Made by a program: the position numbers and the translations under genes. The notes under the pieces are model-generated. The model was not told where the DNA came from, searched no databases, and worked only from the letters and a program-made list of their open reading frames with translations. 40,301 nucleotides of DNA from a virus. The stretch lies in the UHGV virus genome UHGV-0127505; one strand, 5' to 3'. Positions 9,742 through 20,475 of the stretch are shown here, in pieces (within the stretch, counting starts at the first letter, position 1; every line of letters begins with the position of its first letter).

Positions 9742-10431
9742 CTATCCATGCTTCCTGTATGTTTGCGGCATGCTCCCAATAACCTTACCGAAGATGAACA
9801 CCCGGTTCATCTCGTCTTTCTCGATCGGGTCCCACGGTGAGTAGCTCTTGTTATCAGAAATAACCAGCAGCTTATCCTTCATCATTTGCAGGCGCTTTAC
9901 ATGGGCGGTGTCGTCATACAGAAACGCATAGATACCATCACCGTCGAAAGATTTAACCGTGATATCAACGAACAGCAGATCACCTGGTTCGATCGTTCCT
10001 GACATGCTGTCACCACGCACGTTAATGATGCGGATATTTTCTGCCTTCCTACCATCGAACATGTGACGAGCATCGTCAAACGAGTACTCAACCGAGCGTA
10101 GAACTTCTACAAACTCACGGTTGATGACTCCCGGCCCGGCACTCACTTCTATATCAAGAACGTCAATCTTAAAGTATTTGGAATGGCTGACAGTTGATTG
10201 TATTGGTTGCACTGTACTGTCTGACATATTTCCAACGCCAGAAGATAACCATTCTGCGCGCACACCCAAAGCGTTCGCGATCTCCACGATTTTAGTTGTT
10301 TGGTTAGCTTTCCCTGTTTCGATTTTCTGAATAGCAGCTTGGCTAACCCCGACCAAATCCCCAAGCGCCTTTTGTGTAAGGCCTCGCGCTAATCTGGCTT
10401 CTTTAAGTCTTTCTGAGAGTGTTGTTTTCAT
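9742..10431 (-). CDS. cI: CI-type prophage repressor (HTH_XRE N-terminal domain plus S24/LexA-like autoprotease domain)
   Basis: 229 aa from ATG at 10431 (MKTTLSERLKEARLARGLTQKALGDLVGVSQAAIQKIETG...); C-terminal domain with S24 peptidase character; divergent from cro. Confidence 0.85.
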   Translation of the reverse strand: MKTTLSERLKEARLARGLTQKALGDLVGVSQAAIQKIETGKANQTTKIVEIANALGVRAEWLSSGVGNMSDSTVQPIQSTVSHSKYFKIDVLDIEVSAGPGVINREFVEVLRSVEYSFDDARHMFDGRKAENIRIINVRGDSMSGTIEPGDLLFVDITVKSFDGDGIYAFLYDDTAHVKRLQMMKDKLLVISDNKSYSPWDPIEKDEMNRVFIFGKVIGSMPQTYRKHG

Positions 10432-10535
10432 AGACCAAATGTACAACCAAGGTTTTATTACATCAAACGAAAATGGTTGTTGACTAAAAACAACCATAGT
10501 TTTAATCTTGATTCAGATTAACCACGGAGGTTGTT
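10432..10535. promoter_or_regulatory. OR operator / divergent pRM-pR region
   Basis: 25-bp palindrome ATGGTTGTT-gactaaa-AACAACCAT; TTGACT, 17-bp spacer, TAATCT promoter facing cro; GGAGG ribosome-binding site before cro. Confidence 0.65.
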
Positions 10536-10766
10536 ATGAACCCAGCAATCAAAACAGCGATCAATATCGTTGGTTCACAAAAGAAACTGGGCGATGCCTG
10601 CGAAGTTTCACAGCAGGCCGTCTATAAGTGGCTTCACAACAAAGCAAAGGTATCCCCTGAACATGTCGGCAGCATTGTTACGGCTACTGGTGGAGTTGTG
10701 AAGGCATACCAGATTCGCCCGGACCTTCCGAAGTTGTTTCCACACACCGAAAAGAACGCAGCTTAA
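10536..10766 (+). CDS. cro: Cro-like HTH repressor
   Basis: 76 aa with HTH (LGDACEVSQQAVYKW); divergent from cI. Confidence 0.8.
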   Translation: MNPAIKTAINIVGSQKKLGDACEVSQQAVYKWLHNKAKVSPEHVGSIVTATGGVVKAYQIRPDLPKLFPHTEKNAA

Positions 10767-10847: not shown

Positions 10848-11387
10848 ATGCAACCAATTACATACCAACAGACTAGCGGATTTAGCCCGACTGCGGTGAT
10901 AAATCGTTCTCAAACAAAACAGGCGCCAGGCCACGAAAAAATCCGTGATGCCGTTCGCGCCTGGTCGGCTGCAGATAATCAGGATGTTGTTGCCGCACTC
11001 ATTGTGAATGAGTATCGGGAGCAGGGCGGCGGCACCATCGATTTCCCTGATGATGTCAGCCGTGCACGCCAGAAGCTGTTCCGCTTCCTCGATAACAAAT
11101 TCGATTCTGAAAAATACCGAAATAACGTGCGTGAACTGACCCCGGCAATTCTGGCGGTACTACCGCTGGAATATCGCGGCCACCTGGTTGAGCAGGATAG
11201 CTTCATGGCTCGGCTGGCTGAAATGGAAAAGGAACTCAGTGAGGCAAAACAGGCTGTCATTCTCAACGCACCACGCCACCAGAAACTGAAGGAAATTAGT
11301 GAAGGTATTGTGTCGATGTTTCGTGTGGACCCAGATCTGGCTGGTCCATTGATGGCGATGGTTACTACCATGCTGGGGGCGATATGA
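10848..11387 (+). CDS. Regulatory protein in the cII position (YdaT-like family, tentative)
   Basis: 179 aa, AAAGGA ribosome-binding site; position between cro and O; family assignment from recall only. Confidence 0.45.
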   Translation: MQPITYQQTSGFSPTAVINRSQTKQAPGHEKIRDAVRAWSAADNQDVVAALIVNEYREQGGGTIDFPDDVSRARQKLFRFLDNKFDSEKYRNNVRELTPAILAVLPLEYRGHLVEQDSFMARLAEMEKELSEAKQAVILNAPRHQKLKEISEGIVSMFRVDPDLAGPLMAMVTTMLGAI

Positions 11388-11473
11388 CAGGTTCAGAAAT
11401 GGCGAAAGCCGGTCTGCTGGAACAGAACCGACTTTCAGGTGCAAATCGTAACACACTCATTGCGGGAGGAATT

Positions 11474-12403
11474 ATGGCAAACACTGCTGAGATATTCAAT
11501 TTTCCAGTGCCGGATGCGGCACAAAAGGAGCCGCGCGTGGCAGATCTCGATGATGGTTATACGCGCATTGCAAATGAGTTGCTGGAAGCTGTGATGCTGG
11601 CCGGATTAACACAGCACCAGCTTCTGGTCTTCCTAGCTGTCATGCGCAAAACATATGGCTTTAATAAAAAACTGGATTGGGTGAGCAACGAGCAACTGTC
11701 CGAATTGACCGGGATATTGCCGCACAAGTGTTCTGCTGCAAAAAGTGTTCTGGTAAAGCGTGGGATTTTGATTCAGAGCGGGCGGAATATCGGTATTAAT
11801 AATGTGGTCAGTGAATGGTCAACATTACCCGAATCAGGTAAGAAAAATAAAGTTTACCTGAAAGAGGTAAATTTACCTGAATCAGGTAAGAAAAGTTTAC
11901 CCAAATCAGGTAAAGGCGTTTACCCGAATCAGGTAAACACAAAAGACAAACTAACAAAAGACAATATAAAACCTTTTTCGTCCGAGAATTCTGGCGAATC
12001 CTCTGACCAACCAGAAAACGATCTTCCTGTGGTGAAACCGGATGCTGCAATTCAGAGCGGCAGCAAGTGGGGGACAGCAGAAGACCTGACCGCCGCAGAG
12101 TGGATGTTTGACATGGTGAAGACCATCGCGCCATCAGCCAGGAAACCGAATTTTGCAGGGTGGGCTAACGATATCCGCCTGATGCGTGAACGTGACGGAC
12201 GTAACCACCGCGACATGTGCGTGCTGTTCCGCTGGGCATGCCAGGACAACTTCTGGTCCGGTAACGTGCTAAGTCCGGCCAAACTCCGCGACAAGTGGAC
12301 CCAACTCGAAATCAACCGTAACAAGCAACAGGCAGGCGTGACAGCTAGCAAACCAAAACTCGACCTGACAAACACAGACTGGATTTACGGGGTGGATCTA
12401 TGA
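11474..12403 (+). CDS. O: Replication initiator O (lambda O-like)
   Basis: N-terminal region RVADLDDGYTRIANELLEA...LAVMRKTYGFNK matches lambda O; GGGAGG ribosome-binding site; internal iterons; alternative upstream ATG at 11384. Confidence 0.85.
   Translation: MANTAEIFNFPVPDAAQKEPRVADLDDGYTRIANELLEAVMLAGLTQHQLLVFLAVMRKTYGFNKKLDWVSNEQLSELTGILPHKCSAAKSVLVKRGILIQSGRNIGINNVVSEWSTLPESGKKNKVYLKEVNLPESGKKSLPKSGKGVYPNQVNTKDKLTKDNIKPFSSENSGESSDQPENDLPVVKPDAAIQSGSKWGTAEDLTAAEWMFDMVKTIAPSARKPNFAGWANDIRLMRERDGRNHRDMCVLFRWACQDNFWSGNVLSPAKLRDKWTQLEINRNKQQAGVTASKPKLDLTNTDWIYGVDL
11843..11945. repeat. ori: Replication origin iterons (four direct repeats of about 18 bp, TACC(C/T)(G/A)AATCAGGTAA) within O, followed by an AT-rich stretch
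   Basis: Four iterons read directly in the sequence (each shows as ESGK/KSGK/NQVN in the translated O frame); same architecture as ori-lambda. Confidence 0.85.
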
Positions 12404-13101
12404 AAAACATCGCCGCACAGATGATTAACTTTGACCGTGAGCAGATGCGTCGGATCGCCAACAACATGCCGGAACAGTACGACGAAAAGCCTCAGGTACA
12501 GCAGGTAGCGCAGATCATCAATGGTGTGTTCAGCCAGTTACTGGCAACTTTCCCGGCGAGCCTGGCTAACCGTGACCAGAATGAACTGAACGAAATCCGC
12601 CGCCAGTGGGTTCTGGCTTTCCGGGAAAACGGGATCACCACAATGGAACAGGTTAACGCTGGAATGCGCGTAGCCCGTCGGCAGAATCGACCATTTCTGC
12701 CATCACCCGGGCAGTTTGTTGCATGGTGCCGGGAAGAAGCATCCGTTATCGCCGGACTGCCAAACGTCAGCGAGCTGGTTGATATGGTTTACGAGTATTG
12801 CCGGAAGCGAGGCCTGTATCCGGATGCGGAGTCTTATCCGTGGAAATCAAACGCGCACTACTGGCTGGTTACCAACCTGTATCAGAACATGCGGGCCAAT
12901 GCGCTTACTGATGCGGAATTACGCCGTAAGGCCGCAGATGAGCTTGTCCATATGACTGCGAGAATTAACCGTGGTGAGGCGATCCCTGAACCAGTAAAAC
13001 AACTTCCTGTTATGGGCGGTAGACCTCTAAATCGTGCACAGGCTCTGGCGAAGATCGCAGAAATTAAAGCTAAGTTCGGACTGAAAGGAGCAAGTGTATG
13101 A
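12400..13101 (+). CDS. P: Replication protein P (DnaB helicase loader)
   Basis: 233 aa, same size as lambda P and overlapping the O stop. Confidence 0.9.
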   Translation: MKNIAAQMINFDREQMRRIANNMPEQYDEKPQVQQVAQIINGVFSQLLATFPASLANRDQNELNEIRRQWVLAFRENGITTMEQVNAGMRVARRQNRPFLPSPGQFVAWCREEASVIAGLPNVSELVDMVYEYCRKRGLYPDAESYPWKSNAHYWLVTNLYQNMRANALTDAELRRKAADELVHMTARINRGEAIPEPVKQLPVMGGRPLNRAQALAKIAEIKAKFGLKGASV

Positions 13102-13271
13102 CGGGCAAAGAGGCAATTATTCATTACCTGGGGACTCATAAGAACTTCTGTGCGCAGGACGTTGCCGCGGTAACAGGTGTGACAGTAACCAGCATAAATC
13201 AGGCTGCGGCTAAAATGGCGCGGGCAGGAATCTTAGTCATTGATGGTAAGGTCTGGCGAACGTTTGTTTAA
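13098..13271 (+). CDS. ren: Ren N-terminal fragment (57 aa, truncated relative to the 96-aa lambda Ren)
   Basis: MTGKEAIIHYLGTHKNFCAQDVAAVTGVTVTSINQAAAKMARAGILVIDGKVWRTFV matches the lambda Ren N-terminus, then an early stop. Confidence 0.7.
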   Translation: MTGKEAIIHYLGTHKNFCAQDVAAVTGVTVTSINQAAAKMARAGILVIDGKVWRTFV

Positions 13272-13417
13272 CGGTTAGCTACTCAGGATGATAGGGCGGG
13301 GCAAGTGAGTATGAACCGAATTTTCAGGAATGCCGTCAGAGTTTGGTAGTAAAGTGGGTTTTCTAGTGGCAAGAGACTTGATAATATTTAGTTCTTTGAA
13401 TCCAAGGAGATAGGGTT

Positions 13418-13912
13418 ATGAGAAAATTTATTTTAGCCTTTGTCATAAGTGCCTCGTTTACAGCAAATGCTGGTGTAGAGAAGTTAGGGCCGTGGATAAC
13501 AAAGTCTGAGATAAATAAAATGACTGACCAGACTGACTTTGTGGCTCTTAACTTGTCACCAGATTCATATAACAAAGCAGGTACTGATCGTGCAACTTCA
13601 CTGGTGTTGCGTTGTAGTGATAACAAAACAGATGCCTATTTATCATTCAATGATTATATGGGGTCGGACAACCCAAGAATTACAGTGCGGTTAGATGGCG
13701 GAAAGCCGGTCAAGAGTGTTTGGGGAGGTGGGGAAGGCGGTGATTCTGCATTTGCTCCACAACCAATACAATTTATAAAGACCTTGGCTAAGCATAAAAA
13801 AGCTATTTTTGGGTTTGAACCTTATGGATCAACTATGCAAGTAGTTGAGTTTGACTTGTCTGAGATTGATAAGGTTGTGGAAAAAATTTCACAGTCTTGC
13901 AATTGGAAATAA
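13418..13912 (+). CDS. Exported hypothetical protein (signal peptide), AT-rich moron
   Basis: 164 aa; AAGGAG ribosome-binding site; signal peptide MRKFILAFVISASFTANA; low GC. Confidence 0.7.
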   Translation: MRKFILAFVISASFTANAGVEKLGPWITKSEINKMTDQTDFVALNLSPDSYNKAGTDRATSLVLRCSDNKTDAYLSFNDYMGSDNPRITVRLDGGKPVKSVWGGGEGGDSAFAPQPIQFIKTLAKHKKAIFGFEPYGSTMQVVEFDLSEIDKVVEKISQSCNWK

Positions 13913-13929
13913 CAAAAAAATCTCATATG

Positions 13930-13956
13930 AACCCAGTTGGCTCTGGGTTTTTTATT
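13930..13956 (+). terminator. Rho-independent terminator after the exported-protein gene
   Basis: Hairpin CCCAG-ttggct-CTGGG followed by TTTTTTATTT. Confidence 0.65.
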
Positions 13957-14308
13957 TCTGTTGTCTATAATGTATTCATAATTTTTACTGGGATACAGTG
14001 CACATAAAATCCCAATTGCGGTAGGACGATAACTGGATCAGGTGGAGGCACTTACGCAAGAATTGATTGTATTAATTTGCATAGAGCAACGCGAAGTTAT
14101 TTATAAATTAACTGATATAGAGTACTAGATGTAATCCGAACCGGTTATGATTCGTCACCAATTTTGCAAGAGGCTGGGTAGGTAAGCTATTGGATACCGT
14201 AGGTAGCAAAAATATAGAAGGAGGGGAAGAATTGCTAAACTCGAGCATTCACTTAAATCTGAGTTATTTATTGTTAAGATATAATACACTTTGAATAATA
14301 GAGGCTAT

Positions 14309-14713
14309 ATGACAACGAAAATAAGCAAAGATGATAAACATCTGCTTGATCCTTATTTAAAATGGCTTGCAAACAAGAAGCTAATGGTTGCCTTCTGGTT
14401 GGTGCTAATGATATGTGGTTGCATATATGCATATATAGAAAATGATTGGTCACTTCTTCCCCGATTCGGATGTTTAGGCATAATGATTGGCACATTGCTT
14501 ACTCTTTCTCCGCTTTTTGCAGAAGGTATCTACCTATCAAGGCGAGAAGCATTTAGTTTTGGTTCGGTACAACAAGATGGGAGCGTCACCTCAACCTCTG
14601 AAAAAGGTCGTGCAGTATCAAGGAATATTCTATGGGGTGTTATCATTATAATCATATCATCGATAATAAATGCATTTGGTGACTTAATAATGGTCACGAT
14701 TATGAATGGTTAA
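14309..14713 (+). CDS. Small integral membrane protein (about 3 predicted TM helices), AT-rich moron
   Basis: Hydrophobic segments (LMVAFWLVLMICGCIYAYI, LGIMIGTLLTLSPLF, ILWGVIIIIISSIINAF); AGAGG ribosome-binding site before ATG 14309; ORF-track start 14291. Confidence 0.55.
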   Translation: MTTKISKDDKHLLDPYLKWLANKKLMVAFWLVLMICGCIYAYIENDWSLLPRFGCLGIMIGTLLTLSPLFAEGIYLSRREAFSFGSVQQDGSVTSTSEKGRAVSRNILWGVIIIIISSIINAFGDLIMVTIMNG

Positions 14714-14792
14714 AATAATTAACATTTATGATATTAGTATTATATAACTTAGTATGCTGTTTAATTAAGTCACCGCAGACTTGACACTTGGC

Positions 14793-14891
14793 GGTAACTT
14801 CTGCGCTAAACGGTGACGTTTATACGCACATACAATCTAAATCCTCTTCTCCCTCCACAGATGCAGAAATATACCTGCGATTTTTTGCATT
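14793..14891 (+). repeat. Copy A of a roughly 100-bp direct repeat / candidate structured RNA element
   Basis: Shares GGT(A/G)ACTTCTGCGCT and CACAGATGCAGAAAT..ACCTGCGAT..TTGCAT(T/C)C with 17203-17303; adjacent hairpins differ in sequence but both pair. Confidence 0.6.
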
Positions 14892-15308
14892 CGGTGTTTT
14901 TGGCAGCCAAGAACAGGGAGTCTCTGTTTGTCTGGCGGCTAAAGGTGATATGGAAATCGTGATGTCTTGGCCTAAAGTAGTTGCAACAGTTGGAGCGATT
15001 ATGGTGGTAGTAGTGATCATCGCACCACCCATTTGCAAGGGTTGACGACATTATTTATCCGGCGCTATATTCTGTGCGTTGCCGCAAAATCGGCACACGG
15101 GATTGGCGTCCCGGAATACTACTCAACGCATACCGCGTTAAGCGGTTTTTTTATGCGCTAAGCACGGCTACGCCCAAATTATGGTGGGCTGTGTGAGGGC
15201 TTCTTCGGGAGCGCCGGGTTTGAGTAGCCGGTTACGCCAACCTTGCACAGTTCACCACCAGTCGATTGGCGTCGTTGGTGGTGATGGTTAACCTGATGAG
15301 GTGATACT

Positions 15309-15917
15309 ATGACTACTCAATTAGCATTCCACAAAACGACGTTTACCCCAATTTGCCACAATAACAGAATTTGGCTTACTGCCACTGAAGTTGGTTTAGC
15401 TCTGGAATATGCGGACGATAAAGCAGTTCAGCGCATTTACTCTCGTCACTCAGATGAATTTACAGATATGATGACAAGGGTGGTCAAAGTGACCACCCCT
15501 CGTGGAATGCAGGAGTCTCGAGTATTTAGCCTTCGCGGAGCCCATTTGATCGCCATGTTTGCACGAACTCCTGTAGCCAAAGAGTTCCGCCGCTGGGTTC
15601 TGGATATTCTCGATCGAGAAGTTCAACAATCCCCGATCACAAAACAATTCACTGATAACGAACTTTGCACACTCGCCTGGTTATGGCGAGCAAGTGATAC
15701 GATGTTAATCGCCTGCCAGAACGTTACTCCACTTCTTCAGGTTGCGGAGCACCGCGAAGCCGGTCGCTTTACTTCTATCAGTCAGGAATATCCCCTGATA
15801 CTCAGCAAGGCGCGAGCAATCCTTGCCAGAGAAACGGCGCATGTAAAATTCCAACCGTGGCAGGATGATAAGTGGAGCAGGGTATTGCCACATTTGCGTC
15901 AGGCTAGATTGCAATAG
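15309..15917 (+). CDS. Bro-N domain protein (phage antirepressor-like)
   Basis: 202 aa; N-terminus (ICHNNRIWLTATEVGLALEYADDKAVQRIYSRHSDEF) typical of Bro-N / antirepressor proteins. Confidence 0.65.
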   Translation: MTTQLAFHKTTFTPICHNNRIWLTATEVGLALEYADDKAVQRIYSRHSDEFTDMMTRVVKVTTPRGMQESRVFSLRGAHLIAMFARTPVAKEFRRWVLDILDREVQQSPITKQFTDNELCTLAWLWRASDTMLIACQNVTPLLQVAEHREAGRFTSISQEYPLILSKARAILARETAHVKFQPWQDDKWSRVLPHLRQARLQ

Positions 15918-16296: not shown

Positions 16297-16542
16297 ATGC
16301 TCGAGGGGATTTTTATGTCAGACTGGAACATTGCAGCAAAACCGCAAAAGGAACGTGACAAGGTAAGCGTTGGCCTTGCGCTTTCAGGTGTAGCGTATAA
16401 AGAACGCCCGAACATGCCGGTTATAGCTAAACAGGTAGCTAGAGAACAACTTGGGCATCTCCGCGAGTACTTAATGGATCGCGTCCGTTATTACCGTAAG
16501 CAGAGCATCACCTTCCAAAAGCATCCGAACCACGCTACATAG
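16297..16542 (+). CDS. Hypothetical protein (81 aa; start possibly ATG at 16315)
   Basis: ORF only. Confidence 0.4.
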   Translation: MLEGIFMSDWNIAAKPQKERDKVSVGLALSGVAYKERPNMPVIAKQVAREQLGHLREYLMDRVRYYRKQSITFQKHPNHAT

Positions 16543-17330: not shown

Positions 17331-17786
17331 GTGAACCTCCCACAAGATGGCATCAAATTACATCGCGGTAACTTCACCGCTATCGGTCGGCAGATCCAGC
17401 CTTATCTGGAGGAGGGCAAATGCTTTCGCATGGTGCTTAAACCGTGGCGTGAGAAACGCAGTCTTTCCCAGAATGCACTCAGCCACATGTGGTACAGCGA
17501 AATCAGTGAATACCTCATCAGCAGGGGTAAAACGTTCGCTACTCCAGCTTGGGTAAAAGATGCTCTCAAACACACATATCTCGGTTATGAAACCAAAGAC
17601 CTGGTTGATGTCGTAACCGGTGATATCACCACTATCCAGTCGTTACGCCATACCTCCGATCTTGATACCGGAGAGATGTATGTCTTCCTGTGTAAGGTTG
17701 AAGCCTGGGCGGTGAATATTGGCTGCCACCTGACTATTCCGCAGAGCTGCGAGTTCCAGCTGCTCCGCGACAAGCAGGAGGCGTAA
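17331..17786 (+). CDS. ybcN: NinB/Orf-family recombination mediator (DLP12 YbcN-like)
   Basis: 151 aa; GTG start with GGAGGTG ribosome-binding site; recognised as the DLP12 YbcN type. Confidence 0.7.
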
Positions 17787-17956
17787 TGGCTACACCGCTT
17801 ATTCGTGTCATGAACGGACACATCTACAGAGTACCAGATCGTCGTAAGCGTAAACCGGAGCTGAAGCCTTCCGAAATACCAACACTGCTCGGATATACCG
17901 CCAGCCTGGTTGATAAAAAATGGTTGCGACTGGCAGCAAGGAGGAATCATGGCTGA
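17786..17956 (+). CDS. ninE: NinE-family protein (56 aa)
   Basis: Hand-translated [56 protein letters not shown]; start overlaps the ybcN stop (TAATG). Confidence 0.55.
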   Translation: MATPLIRVMNGHIYRVPDRRKRKPELKPSEIPTLLGYTASLVDKKWLRLAARRNHG

Positions 17957-18239
17957 TTTGAGAAAAGCAGCGCGTAGTCGGGAATGCCAGGTAAGAATCC
18001 CTGGCGTATGTAATGGCAACCCTGAAACGTCTGTACTGGCACATATCCGGCTGACTGGATTGTGCGGCACCGGTACCAAACCGCCAGACCTGATTGCCAC
18101 CATTGCATGTTCTGCCTGCCACGACGAAATCGACCGCCGCACACATTTTGTCGATGCTGCATATGCAAAAGAATGCGCGCTGGAAGGTATGGCGAGAACA
18201 CAGGTTATCTGGCTGAAAGAGGGGGTTATTAAGGCGTGA
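17949..18239 (+). CDS. ybcO: YbcO-like protein (DUF1364, putative nuclease; Cys-rich)
   Basis: 96 aa from [37 protein letters not shown]...; nin-region position. Confidence 0.75.
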
Positions 18240-18598
18240 ATACCTACAGCATCACATTACCCTGGCCTCCGAGCAATAATCGCTATTACCGCCATAATCG
18301 CGGGCGCACGCACGTCAGCGCAGAGGGGCAGGCATACCGCGATAACGTCGCCCGAATCATTAAAAACGCAATGCTGGATATCGGCCTGGCTATGCCTGTG
18401 AAAATCCGCATTGAGTGCCACATGCCGGATCGCCGTCGCCGTGACCTGGATAATCTGCAAAAAGCCGCTTTTGACGCACTCACTAAAGCAGGTTTCTGGC
18501 TGGATGATGCTCAGGTCGTTGATTACCGCGTTGTGAAGATGCCTGTTACCAAAGGTGGGAGGCTGGAACTGACCATCACCGAAATGGGGAATGAATGA
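18236..18598 (+). CDS. rusA: RusA Holliday-junction resolvase
   Basis: 120 aa [37 protein letters not shown]... reads as RusA. Confidence 0.9.
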
Positions 18599-18738
18599 TG
18601 TTTGAGTTTAATATGGCAGAACTTCTTCGCCACCGCTGGGGGCGTCTGCGCTTATATCGTTTCCCCGGTTCTGTTTTGACCGATTACCGAATACTGAAGA
18701 ATTACGCCAAAACCCTGACAGGAGCAGGAGTATGAAGT
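18598..18738 (+). CDS. ylcG: YlcG-like small protein (46 aa)
   Basis: [45 protein letters not shown]; start overlaps the rusA stop. Confidence 0.6.
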
Positions 18739-18820
18739 CAGAGATAACAATCAACTAATACTGTTTTATTGATTTTTGCTTGTAATTGGCGTTCTGGTCT
18801 GATTTTTGTGGAGTAAGTTG

Positions 18821-19204
18821 ATGCGTGATATTCAGATGGTTCTTGAGCGTTGGGGAGCGTGGGCGGCTAATAATCATGAAGATGTGACCTGGTCGTCCAT
18901 TGCCGCCGGTTTTAAGGGATTAATTACTTCAAAAGTAAAATCTCGCCCGCAATGTTGTGACGATGACGCGATGATCATTTGCGGGTGCATGGCCCGTCTG
19001 AAAAAGAACAACAGCGATTTGCACGATTTATTAGTAGATTATTATGTAGTCGGTATGACATTCATGTCACTGGCAGGTAAGCATTGCTGCTCTGATGGTT
19101 ATATCGGGAAAAGGTTACAGAAGGCTGAGGGCATAATTGAAGGGATGTTAATGGCATTAGATATCCGGTTAGAGATGGATATCGTTGTTAATAACTCTAA
19201 TTAA
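18821..19204 (+). CDS. Q: Late-gene antiterminator Q (DLP12 QuuD / phage 21-82 type)
   Basis: 127 aa from [22 protein letters not shown]...; Cys-rich zinc-binding region; last nin-region gene before the lysis cassette. Confidence 0.8.
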
Positions 19205-19392: not shown

Positions 19393-20475
19393 TTAGAACT
19401 GGTAAACCATACCTACAGCAACGATATCATCGGTAGCAACGCCAGATGCTTTCGTGAAATCGCTCTTATCAATCAGGTTGATTTTGTAGTCAACAAAAGT
19501 GGACATATTTTTGTTGAAGTAATAGGTTGCACCTACATCAACATATTCAACCAGGTCCTGATCACCCCAAACACCCAAGTCTTTTCCTTTAGAATGCAGG
19601 TAAGCAACGGATGGACGCAGGCCGAAGTCGAACTGATATTGTGCAACAGCTTCGAAGTTTTGTGCTTTGTTGGCAATATGGTTATTACCAAAAACAGTCA
19701 TGTTCTGGGTTTCAGAATAGGTGGTGGCCAGATAGATGTTGTTCGCATCATATTTCAGACCAGCTGCCCATACTTCAGCATTTTGACCAGATGCATTCAG
19801 GCTGTTGTTACCGTAGATAACCTGATTATTAGTGCGGTCAGATTTAGCATAGGTTGCACCTACACCGAATCCTTCATACTCATAAGTAGTGGAGAAACCG
19901 AAACCATCACCATTAGCTTCAGTTACGTCAGTGCGGTCATTTTTACCCTGATACTGAGCAGCAACGTTCAGACCATCAACCAGACCAAAGAAGTCATTGT
20001 TACGATAAGTTGCAACACCTGTGGTGCGACCAGTCATGAATACATCTGTTTGGGTCCAGGTATCGCCACCGAATTCTGGCAGAACGTCAGTCCACGCACC
20101 GATGTCGTATGCTACACCGTAGTTACGGCCGTAATCGATTGAGCCGTAGTCACCGAATTTCAGGCCTGCAAATGCAAGACGGGTTTTGTCTTTGGAGGAA
20201 CCTTGAGATTCAGCGCGGTTGCCTTTGAATTCATATTCCCACTGACCGAAACCAGTCAGTTGATCGTTGATTTGGGTTTCACCTTTGAAGCCAAGACGGG
20301 CATAAGTAGTATCACCATCATCTGCATCATTAGAGGAGAAGTAGTGCTTAGCATTAACTTTCCCGTACAGATCCAGCTTGTTACTGTCTTTATTATAAAT
20401 TTCAGCTGCCTGAGCAGACATCGCCATCAGTACTGATGCAGCTACAGCAGAAATTGCCACTGTTAATTTTTTCAT
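19393..20475 (-). CDS. nmpC: Phage-encoded outer-membrane porin (NmpC/Lc/OmpC family), lysogenic-conversion gene
   Basis: 360 aa with signal peptide, C-terminal VGMVYQF beta-barrel signature; located between Q and S as in DLP12. Confidence 0.9.

What the first reader, a model, noticed from the sequence alone, without database searches (positions are those of the whole stretch)
13098..14713. Truncated ren followed by AT-rich exported and membrane protein genes
ren matches lambda Ren for 57 residues and then stops. In lambda, Ren protects against Rex exclusion, and this prophage has replaced rexAB, so its decay is coherent. Downstream, where lambda carries the nin genes, are two AT-rich morons: a signal-peptide protein (164 aa) with its own terminator and a small multi-pass membrane protein. 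Either could be a surface-acting exclusion or envelope factor.
Basis: partly seen in the sequence, partly recalled or inferred. Interest (0 to 1): 0.45.

Follow-up and report, generated by a model that had tools for sequence, protein, structure and literature searches.

The report
Dead ren gene, two envelope morons
A lambda-like phage carries a broken copy of the ren gene followed by two imported genes, one for a periplasmic protein and one for a small inner-membrane protein. The arrangement is real, but it is already present and annotated in public E. coli genomes, and its function is still unknown.

Summary
The ORF at 13098-13271 is the first 57 codons of ren. It ends at a TAC-to-TAA change and is followed by a 1-base deletion; RefSeq annotates the same lesions as a pseudogene.

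The causal reading is weak. Intact ren is kept by most phages that have it, including ones without rexAB. This broken allele is found only together with the downstream insert. There is a sharp mosaic joint at codon 55/56: 94% nucleotide identity before it, 62% after.

The 164-aa gene (13418-13912) is a self-contained moron:
- conserved extended -10 promoter, Shine-Dalgarno site, Sec signal peptide and intrinsic terminator;
- a minimal VasI/TagO-IalB-fold periplasmic domain with an invariant cysteine pair;
- 55-81% relatives that almost always sit between the tail-chaperone-position gene and the tape-measure gene, the slot of the HK97 gene 15 exclusion moron.

I infer a prophage-expressed periplasmic exclusion or envelope factor. 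The exclusion mechanism itself is about 0.3 likely.

The 134-aa gene (14309-14713) encodes a three-helix inner-membrane protein. It matches no known family and is rare in E. coli (3 of 5426 genomes). It recurs in early regions of lambdoid prophages, often overlapping a theta-like gene.

The nin genes are still present downstream. All three products are identical in the isolated phage IdasGreatGrand. Ordinary mosaicism; modest interest.

The parts
13098..13271 (+). 57-codon ren ORF (winged-helix N-terminal part of Ren). Its ATG overlaps the stop of P, and it ends at TAA 13269-13271, where intact ren has TAC.
   Evidence: PHROG 7054 is a 57-aa family (1-57 of 57, 142 bits), and phrog_142 'Ren-like exclusion protein' also matches. 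In codons 1-55 dN/dS against intact alleles is 0.12-0.25.
13272..13366 (+). Decayed or foreign 3' remnant of ren, with a 1-base deletion after 13325. The lambda tR2 hairpin is absent.
   Evidence: It is 62% identical in nucleotides to lambda and PhiR34_1 ren, which are 95% identical to each other over the same stretch. dN is 0.31-0.35, against 0.024-0.059 in the 5' part. Residues L60 and A67 resemble Klebsiella/Enterobacter Ren. In E. coli it is found only with the moron.
13379..13387 (+). Candidate extended -10 promoter of the moron (TG at 13379-13380, TAATAT at 13382-13387), 30 nt upstream of the ATG. The AAGGAG Shine-Dalgarno site is at 13404-13409.
   Evidence: TGnTA(A/G)(T/G)AT lies 39-42 nt upstream of the ATG in all 16 loci examined. 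These include copies whose flanks are otherwise unrelated. This is a sequence inference only.
13418..13912 (+). Gene for a 164-aa secreted periplasmic protein: an 18-residue signal peptide followed by a minimal VasI/TagO-IalB-like beta-sandwich domain with invariant C66 and C161.
13929..13960 (+). Intrinsic terminator of the moron (GAACCCAG-TTGGCT-CTGGGTTT followed by a T-run).
   Evidence: It is homologous to the hairpin AAACCCAGC..GCTGGGTTTTTTATT found after the tail-slot copies.
14280..14285 (+). Candidate -10 hexamer TATAAT upstream of the membrane-protein gene. The AGAGG Shine-Dalgarno site is at 14300-14304.
   Evidence: It is conserved at the same place upstream of the 77%-identical orthologue in L027. 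No good -35 was found. Weak evidence.
14309..14713 (+). Gene for a 134-aa three-helix inner-membrane protein of an uncharacterised family.

Best explanation
The stretch 13098-14713 is the start of a roughly 4-kb accessory island. The island lies between the replication module (O, P) and the DLP12-type nin genes of a viable lambdoid phage.

(1) ren is a pseudogene made by recombination. Codons 1-55 are a normal E. coli ren allele. From codon 56 on, the sequence is a distant and decayed ren tail with a stop and a frameshift. That tail arrived as the left flank of the inserted cassette.

(2) The cassette (about 13370-13960) is a classic moron with its own extended -10 promoter, Shine-Dalgarno site, ORF and intrinsic terminator. 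It can therefore be transcribed from the repressed prophage. Its product is exported by Sec, loses an 18-residue signal peptide, and folds in the periplasm as a disulfide-bonded beta-sandwich of the VasI/TagO-IalB type, with no enzyme-like features. Its relatives live in the tail-chaperone/tape-measure slot of Klebsiella, Salmonella and Enterobacter siphophage prophages. That is the slot of the HK97 gene 15 exclusion moron. The most likely role is a binding protein that protects the lysogen's envelope. My preferred mechanism is superinfection exclusion, by interfering with the periplasmic stage of genome delivery by incoming tailed phages.

(3) The 134-aa gene is a separate, rarer add-on. It encodes an N-in/C-out three-helix inner-membrane protein. 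Its family is carried in early (nin or pL) regions of lambdoid prophages, often translationally coupled to a theta-like gene. Its role is unknown.

Shown: the anatomy, homology, fold, distribution and context. Inferred: expression in the lysogen, the disulfide, the localisation, and any exclusion activity.
For: ren lesions and mosaic joint:
- Lesions seen, and annotated.
- Identity drops from 94% to 62% at codon 55/56, while intact alleles stay 95% identical over the same stretch.
- The 3' remnant is found only in the 84 genomes that match the remnant-plus-moron query.

Moron criteria:
- The insert is absent from lambda and from PhiR34_1, which share the flanking replication genes.
- GC is 0.39 against 0.48-0.53.
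- The TGnTAnnAT motif and the terminator are conserved in 16 loci of at least 6 sequence types.

Protein:
- Signal peptide conserved in 24 homologues.
- The A2 profile finds 3817 representatives. They include ~200-aa proteins that match Pfam VasI full-length at about 65 bits.
- An invariant Cys pair is shared with those proteins.

Context in 80 IMG/VR loci:
- 41 of 41 copies at 98% identity or more have P and ren upstream.
- 35 of 39 copies at 55-81% identity have a tape-measure gene within 1.4 kb downstream, 21 of them within 64-110 bp. Three of the other four have DUF6246 upstream.
- Example L088: tail terminator, Ig-domain tail protein, DUF6246, VasI-like gene, TMP_3, minor tail protein.
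- The same is seen in NCBI and Logan contigs.

Other points:
- HK97 gene 15 lies between the tail assembly chaperone and tape-measure genes. It is expressed from the prophage and blocks genome injection (PMC3594210).
- All three products are 100% identical in the isolated phage IdasGreatGrand, PP925829.
- Membrane protein.
Against: - There is no expression or phenotype data.
- The promoter is a consensus match supported only by conservation.
- The window's copy is not next to a tape-measure gene, so the positional analogy applies to its relatives.
- Slot sharing with HK97 gene 15 is not homology. gp15 is a small YebO-like inner-membrane protein.
- Moron slots hold genes of many functions, so position alone is weak evidence for exclusion.
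- PADLOC has no model matching either protein.
- A 2026 review lists TagO/VasI function as 'Unknown' (PMC13584744), so homology gives no mechanism.
- The Cys-Cys distance in the model could not be measured with these tools.
Confidence: 0.6

Rival explanations
1. The 164-aa protein is what its RefSeq name says, a type VI secretion accessory protein (TagO/VasI). It would modulate the host's T6SS or protect the lysogen's periplasm against incoming T6SS attack.
For: It is homologous to VasI-type proteins. The Pfam match is at threshold. The profile reaches full-length VasI matches. Core residues are shared. RefSeq names it TagO.
Against: - TIGR03360 equivalog scores 14.4 bits against a cut-off of 124.2.
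- The N-terminal C-x(n)-RLxC[FY]D module of the ~200-aa proteins is missing.
- All 80 IMG/VR loci and all NCBI and Logan loci examined are prophage contexts, not T6SS clusters.
- The domain is also fused to cytochrome c, zinc-ribbon and DUF2939 modules, so it is a general periplasmic module.
- TagO function is itself unknown.
Confidence: 0.12
2. ren decayed because the phage lost rexAB, so Ren was no longer needed.
For: The rexAB slot holds a SIR2_2 protein instead. ren is broken.
Against: - Intact ren is retained in 163 of 172 phage records with a match. By my own knowledge many of these lack rexAB.
- PhiR34_1 has the same cI/cro/O/P module and no rexAB, and it keeps Ren.
- The lesion is tied to the moron and to a recombination joint.
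- By established knowledge (Toothman and Herskowitz 1980, from memory), Ren protects against Rex of any resident lambda prophage. Loss of the phage's own rex therefore does not remove the selective need for Ren.
Confidence: 0.12
3. The 57-aa Ren fragment is not dead. It is a maintained, functional winged-helix protein.
For: - The ORF keeps the HTH-like part (MarR_2 residues 7-47; phrog_1687).
- Many 57-aa variants (84-96% identical) all end at WRTFV. Two of them are seen on 69 and 261 contigs.
- dN/dS is 0.25 between two truncated copies.
- The translational coupling to P is intact.
Against: - The polymorphisms in the 5' part are the same ones seen among intact alleles. Recombination with intact ren explains the low dN/dS.
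- The conserved C-terminal 40 residues of Ren are lost.
- RefSeq calls it a pseudogene.
Confidence: 0.15
4. The 164-aa protein is an IalB-like lysogenic-conversion factor acting on a eukaryotic host (adhesion or invasion) rather than on phages.
Against: - Sequence identity is only 9%.
- The carriers come from soil, wastewater, animals and humans alike.
- It is also present in a swamp-mud phage.
- There is no secretion signal beyond Sec.
Confidence: 0.08
5. The two downstream genes form one two-component envelope system.
For: They are adjacent in the window, in strains S21 and H14, and in IdasGreatGrand.
Against: - They co-occur in only 3 of the 84 E. coli genomes that have the moron, and in 1 of 41 IMG/VR loci.
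- Each family has its own separate, recurrent context.
- A terminator and 350 bp lie between them.
Confidence: 0.04

Closest known systems
HK97 gene 15 moron (superinfection exclusion; Juhala 2000, Cumby 2012; PMC3594210)
   Same: Both are self-contained promoter-gene-terminator cassettes with deviant GC. The product of each goes to the envelope. Relatives of the 164-aa gene occupy the same slot, between the tail-chaperone-position gene and the tape-measure gene.
   Different: There is no sequence or fold relation. gp15 is a small YebO-like inner-membrane protein, while this is a soluble periplasmic beta-sandwich. The window's copy sits after ren, not in the tail operon. No exclusion has been shown.
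T6SS accessory protein VasI/TagO (PF11319, TIGR03360; VC_A0118)
   Same: The core domains are homologous, with the same invariant W, C, D, W, F, C residues and a signal peptide.
   Different: It lacks the N-terminal Cys-RLxC[FY]D module. It fails the equivalog cut-off and is never in a T6SS cluster here. The function of the reference family is unknown.
IalB (PF06776; PDB 3dtd, Bartonella henselae)
   Different: Identity is 9%, and there is no Pfam IalB hit for the query.
Lambda Ren (NP_040633, 96 aa)
   Same: The first 57 residues are 84% identical. The position is the same, overlapping the end of P.
   Different: It is truncated at codon 58, frameshifted, and its last ~33 codons are replaced by a 62%-identical remnant. 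tR2 is missing.
DLP12 / PhiR34_1 ren-to-nin accessory island (emrE, ybcK, ybcL, ybcM)
   Same: Same insertion hotspot, between ren and ybcN-ninE-ybcO-rusA-ylcG-Q, and the same flanking modules.
   Different: The cargo differs, and ren is intact there.

Membership tests
Lambda Ren | Homology to Ren, immediately downstream of and overlapping P | tested here: met
   48 of 57 residues are identical to lambda Ren. phrog_142 matches at 2.4e-20. The ATG overlaps the P stop.
Lambda Ren | Full-length ORF of about 96-100 aa with the conserved C-terminus YYRFATREEREGK..KECRQSAAMKRVL | tested here: not met
   There is a stop at codon 58 and a -1 frameshift, and the C-terminal remnant is heavily substituted. 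RefSeq annotates a pseudogene.
Moron (Juhala/Hendrix definition, PMC3594210) | Extra DNA compared with otherwise similar phages | tested here: met
   Lambda lacks it, and so does PhiR34_1, which shares cI-cro-cII-O-P and the nin genes.
Moron (Juhala/Hendrix definition, PMC3594210) | Base composition different from neighbours | tested here: met
   GC is 0.387 (cassette) and 0.373 (membrane gene), against 0.484 (O) and 0.526 (P).
Moron (Juhala/Hendrix definition, PMC3594210) | Own terminator | tested here: met
   For the 164-aa gene: a hairpin plus U-run that is conserved across contexts. For the 134-aa gene no convincing terminator was found.
Moron (Juhala/Hendrix definition, PMC3594210) | Own promoter, expressed from the repressed prophage | tested here: inconclusive
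   A conserved extended -10 lies 39-42 nt upstream of the ATG in 16 of 16 loci. A conserved TATAAT lies upstream of the 134-aa gene. Expression cannot be tested with these tools.
T6SS VasI/TagO | Pfam PF11319 at or above the gathering score, over the whole model | tested here: inconclusive
   The score is 26.7 bits against a cut-off of 26.5, but only model positions 78-184 of 184 are matched. A close relative, L088, scores 24.4, below the cut-off.
T6SS VasI/TagO | NCBIfam TIGR03360 equivalog cut-off | tested here: not met
   14.4 bits against a cut-off of 124.2.
T6SS VasI/TagO | N-terminal C-x(n)-RLxC[FY]D module seen in ~200-aa family members | tested here: not met
   It is absent from the window protein and from its phage relative P0027. 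It is present in 10 of the 13 more distant representatives aligned with them.
T6SS VasI/TagO | Encoded within a T6SS gene cluster | tested here: not met
   Every locus examined is a prophage or phage.
IalB (PF06776) | Sequence match to the family model | tested here: not met
HK97 gp15 / YebO-type exclusion protein | Homology to gp15/YebO | tested here: not met
   The Pfam scan at E<=1 returns only VasI. The protein is a soluble beta-sandwich, not a small membrane helix.
HK97 gp15 / YebO-type exclusion protein | Blocks genome injection when expressed from the prophage | not testable with these tools
   This needs plaque, adsorption and DNA-entry assays.
Known anti-phage defence systems (PADLOC) | Match to any PADLOC model | tested here: not met
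   There are no hits for Ren57, the 164-aa protein or the 134-aa protein at E<=1.

The most novel reading that the evidence does not exclude
Phage-borne minimal VasI/IalB-fold periplasmic proteins (PHROG 1848) would be a widespread, uncharacterised class of superinfection-exclusion factors. They would bind the tape-measure or tail-tip conduit as it crosses the periplasm. By extension, the unknown job of T6SS TagO/VasI would be to bind the homologous phage-tail-like T6SS structure in the periplasm.
Probability: 0.12. Interest if true: 0.65.

Novelty: new member of a known kind. Interest (0 to 1): 0.3.

Why it matters
Prophage morons are a main source of lysogen traits such as phage resistance, serum resistance and virulence. 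This cassette is common: the exact protein is seen on at least 1000 public contigs, and it is in 84 of 5426 complete E. coli genomes. Its relatives almost always sit just upstream of the tape-measure gene. If it proves to be an exclusion factor, it would add a periplasmic, soluble type to a class that is so far mostly membrane proteins and lipoproteins. It would also give the first functional handle on the VasI/TagO domain. As it stands, the finding mainly documents ordinary lambdoid mosaicism. It also corrects two annotations: 'T6SS-associated TagO' over-reaches, and the ORF named 'MarR family regulator' is a ren fragment.

Tried and rejected
- PADLOC and NCBIfam gave nothing usable for either protein.
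- A PDB sequence search with the family profile gave 0 hits.
- Foldseek against viral models found only uncharacterised proteins.
- Literature searches for the accessions, PHROG 1848, PF11319, or VasI together with prophage found no functional study. A search for papers on ren and Rex gave none with usable text on ren, so the Ren function is cited from memory.
- A search for an intact Ren carrying the window's reconstructed C-terminus found none. The best full-length hits have the ordinary C-terminus.
- The Rfam permissive scan of 13250-15350 found no RNA element inside the finding's coordinates.
- The promoter the scanner flagged at 14271-14299 was rejected, because its -10 ends only 10 nt before the ATG and would exclude the Shine-Dalgarno site. 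The conserved TATAAT at 14280-14285 is preferred.
- The apparent 'P2-like phage' copy in Escherichia phage 500465-2 is a 297-aa VasI-domain gene next to flk, an MFS transporter and a beta-ketoacyl-ACP synthase I gene. These look like host chromosomal genes included in the phage record, so I did not count it as a phage context.
Full report
WHAT IS THERE

The window is a lambdoid phage genome segment. Around the finding the gene order is as follows:

| Feature | Coordinates |
|---|---|
| exo, bet, gam | upstream |
| 644-aa SIR2_2 protein | 7642-9576 (-) |
| cI-like S24 repressor | 9742-10497 (-) |
| cro-like gene | 10536-10766 |
| YdaT/cII-position gene | 10848-11387 |
| O | 11384-12403 |
| P | 12400-13101 |
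| the finding | 13098-14713 |

Downstream come isrK (15080-15152) and C4 antisense RNA (15177-15262), then a Bro-N/P22AR-C antirepressor (15309-15917) and a theta-like ORF (16297-16542). The DLP12-type nin genes follow: ybcN/NinB-like, ninE, ybcO, rusA, ylcG and Q, at 17331-19204. Last is a porin gene on the minus strand. The inserts therefore sit between ren and the nin genes and do not replace the nin genes.

The isolated phage Escherichia phage IdasGreatGrand (PP925829, from swamp mud) encodes 100%-identical 164-aa and 134-aa proteins and the same 57-codon ren ORF. A phage with this arrangement is therefore viable. E. coli S21 and H14 carry the whole 2.3 kb at 99.3% identity.

REN

The ORF 13098-13271 encodes 57 residues, 84% identical to lambda Ren. 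Aligned with lambda ren and with the intact 100-aa ren of PhiR34_1, the window has TAA where they have TAC at codon 58. It also has a 1-base deletion after 13325, and homology fades near 13362. The lambda tR2 hairpin is absent. RefSeq annotates the same thing in S21 and MSI001 as a pseudogene, 'frameshifted; internal stop'.

The interesting detail is a discontinuity:
- Codons 1-55 are 94% identical in nucleotides to PhiR34_1 ren, with dN/dS 0.12.
- Codons 56-88 are only 62% identical to either intact allele, with dN 0.31-0.35 and saturated dS.
- The two intact alleles are 95% identical to each other over that same 3' stretch.

The remnant shares a few residues with Klebsiella and Enterobacter Ren, namely YRLAT and AG. 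It also has replacements at positions that every intact Ren keeps. No intact Ren with this C-terminus turned up.

Among 5426 complete E. coli genomes, a query covering the remnant and the moron (13272-13960) matched only 84. Of these, 82 covered at least 80% of the query. In IMG/VR, 41 of 41 near-identical copies of the cassette have P and ren upstream.

My reading is that a recombination inside ren joined an E. coli replication module to a foreign segment. That segment consisted of an already broken, distant ren tail plus the cassette. Many 57-aa variants all end in WRTFV, while their N-terminal polymorphisms match those of intact alleles. This fits repeated recombination in the 5' part.

It is not supported:
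- 163 of 172 phage records with a Ren match keep at least 80% of it. By my own knowledge these include 933W and other Stx phages and phage 21, which lack rexAB.
- PhiR34_1 has the same immunity and replication module and no rexAB, and it has an intact Ren.
- Ren counters Rex of any resident lambda (Toothman and Herskowitz 1980, from memory). Losing one's own rex does not make Ren useless.

THE 164-AA GENE

*Cassette anatomy*
- TG-n-TAATAT at 13379-13387.
- AAGGAG at 13404-13409.
- ATG at 13418 and stop at 13912.
- Hairpin at 13929-13950 plus a T-run (-11.4 kcal/mol, z -2.4).

In 16 loci covering at least six sequence types and two quite different genomic contexts, TGnTA(A/G)(T/G)AT lies 39-42 nt upstream of the ATG, and a hairpin with a T-run follows the stop. 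The closer relatives have a hairpin that is visibly homologous. GC is 0.39 against 0.48-0.53 in O and P. This meets the sequence criteria for a moron as defined for HK97 (PMC3594210). Expression itself is untested.

*The protein*
- It has a canonical Sec signal, MRK followed by a hydrophobic core and ANA|G, conserved in all 24 aligned homologues. There is no consistent lipobox.
- The AF2 model (pLDDT 79) is a beta-sandwich with two helices.
- Pfam VasI is hit at threshold, but only over the C-terminal 107 model positions. The TIGR03360 equivalog cut-off is missed by far.
- A profile of the family finds 3817 cluster representatives, 1222 of them at E<=1e-10.
- These include ~200-aa proteins that match VasI end to end. 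They also include fusions to cytochrome c, zinc-ribbon and DUF2939 modules.
- W26, C66, D93, W102, F145 and C161 are invariant across both the phage-type and the VasI-type proteins. Most of the VasI-type proteins carry an extra N-terminal C-x(n)-RLxC[FY]D module that the phage type lacks.

It is therefore a minimal member of the VasI/IalB-like periplasmic domain superfamily, not an equivalog of T6SS TagO. A 2026 review lists TagO/VasI function as unknown (PMC13584744).

*Context*

Context is the most informative result. In E. coli the cassette is always in the ren-nin position and is nearly invariant (97.7-100%), so this looks like one recent acquisition.

Its relatives at 55-81% identity are in Klebsiella, Salmonella, Enterobacter, Citrobacter and metagenomic siphophage prophages. 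They sit between the DUF6246 gene, which is in the tail-chaperone position, and the tape-measure gene.
- 35 of 39 IMG/VR loci have a tape-measure homologue within 1.4 kb downstream, 21 of them within 64-110 bp.
- In several loci the cassette is the only insert. In L088 the order is tail terminator, Ig-domain tail protein, DUF6246, VasI-like gene, TMP_3, minor tail protein.
- The pattern also holds in NCBI and Logan contigs and in Klebsiella phage ST11-VIM1phi8.1.

That is the position of the first described moron, HK97 gene 15. It is expressed from the prophage and blocks genome injection in a way that depends on the incoming phage's tail region (PMC3594210).

*Inference*

I infer a periplasmic binding protein made by the lysogen. 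Superinfection exclusion at the periplasmic stage of DNA delivery is the single most likely role, at about 0.3. The rivals are a T6SS-related role, IalB-like host interaction, or some other envelope function. Position in a moron slot is weak evidence, and no defence model matches.

THE 134-AA GENE

The likely start is ATG 14309, with AGAGG 5 nt upstream. This matches RefSeq's CDS and the family N-termini. The model has helices at 23-43, 47-71 and 98-133 and a disordered loop at 76-95 (pLDDT 72). The N-terminus is basic, the first loop is acidic, and the long loop is mixed, which fits N-in/C-out. Invariant motifs are GTLLTLSP in helix 2 and SSxxNxF in helix 3. Nothing above threshold turned up in Pfam, NCBIfam, PHROGs or PADLOC, and there is no specific fold match.

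It is rare in E. coli: 3 of 5426 complete genomes, one of them cut by an IS3 element. It is present in only 1 of 41 IMG/VR loci that have the cassette.

Homologues at 42-77% identity lie in early regions of Enterobacter, Klebsiella, Citrobacter, Pantoea and E. coli lambdoid prophages, and in a Psu-encoding island next to an integrase gene. In Enterobacter and Pantoea the gene overlaps the start of a theta (HolE-like) gene. The window also has a theta-like ORF, 1.6 kb further on, with the isrK/C4/antirepressor module in between. A TATAAT at 14280-14285 is conserved upstream of the 77% orthologue. No clear terminator follows.

Function is unknown. I would not call it part of a system with the 164-aa protein.

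VERDICT

Everything here is already in public databases, though partly mis-named: 'T6SS-associated protein TagO' for the 164-aa protein and 'MarR family regulator' for the ren fragment. The one lead worth an experiment is the strict association of the VasI-like cassette family with the HK97 gene 15 slot upstream of the tape-measure gene.

Noticed in passing
window 7642-9576 (-): A 644-aa SIR2_2-domain protein (Pfam 1.3e-13; PADLOC Aga_SIR2-PNTD models up to 1e-67) sits immediately left of the cI-like repressor, where lambda has rexAB. It is a candidate prophage defence gene. The related phage IdasGreatGrand has different genes in this slot.
   Followed up: partly
window 15042-15917: This is a P1 immI / Gifsy-1-like module inside the nin region. 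It has a promoter-like site at 15042-15071, a c4 a1b1 target at 15065-15117 (below the gathering score), isrK at 15080-15152, C4 antisense RNA at 15177-15262, and then a Bro-N/P22AR-C antirepressor at 15309-15917.
   Followed up: partly
window 14950-15045 (+): A 31-aa strongly hydrophobic ORF (MEIVMSWPKVVATVGAIMVVVVIIAPPICKG) ends just before the isrK promoter. It is called as a CDS in IdasGreatGrand but not in RefSeq. It could be a small membrane peptide or a toxin-like ORF.
   Followed up: no
window 16297-16542 (+); L005-L009, L030-L032: There is a theta (HolE/HOT-like, PF06440 7e-25) ORF in the nin region. In Enterobacter and Pantoea prophages the homologue of the 134-aa membrane protein overlaps the start of such a theta gene. 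This suggests an ancestral two-gene module that the isrK/antirepressor insert split in this window.
   Followed up: partly
L011-L015, L018, L020-L025 (upstream and downstream of the VasI-like gene): In the tail-chaperone/tape-measure moron slot, successive cassettes are separated by a repeated boundary. It consists of a terminator hairpin, then GTCGTT, then CCCTGCTA(GG/AT). It may serve both as a promoter and as a recombination joint for cassette exchange.
   Followed up: no
L016 3235-4465 (Escherichia phage 500465-2 record, apparently host flank next to flk): A 297-aa protein annotated TagO is preceded by a zinc-ribbon protein. Its neighbours (flk, an MFS transporter, a beta-ketoacyl-ACP synthase I gene) look like E. 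coli chromosomal genes. VasI domains therefore seem to occur outside both T6SS clusters and prophages, and the phage record appears to include host DNA.
   Followed up: no
L003 4914-5850 (E. coli MSI001) and most IMG/VR loci L036-L075: In the common E. coli arrangement, the ~1-1.6 kb between the cassette and ybcN has no annotated gene. It contains a 41-aa remnant similar to the C-terminus of the window's antirepressor. The island has been reshuffled and has decayed several times.
   Followed up: partly
window 19393-20475 (-): A porin gene (Porin_1, 1.8e-151) lies just downstream of Q on the opposite strand, as nmpC/ompD does in DLP12-type prophages. It is a lysogenic-conversion candidate that could itself change phage receptors.
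   Followed up: no
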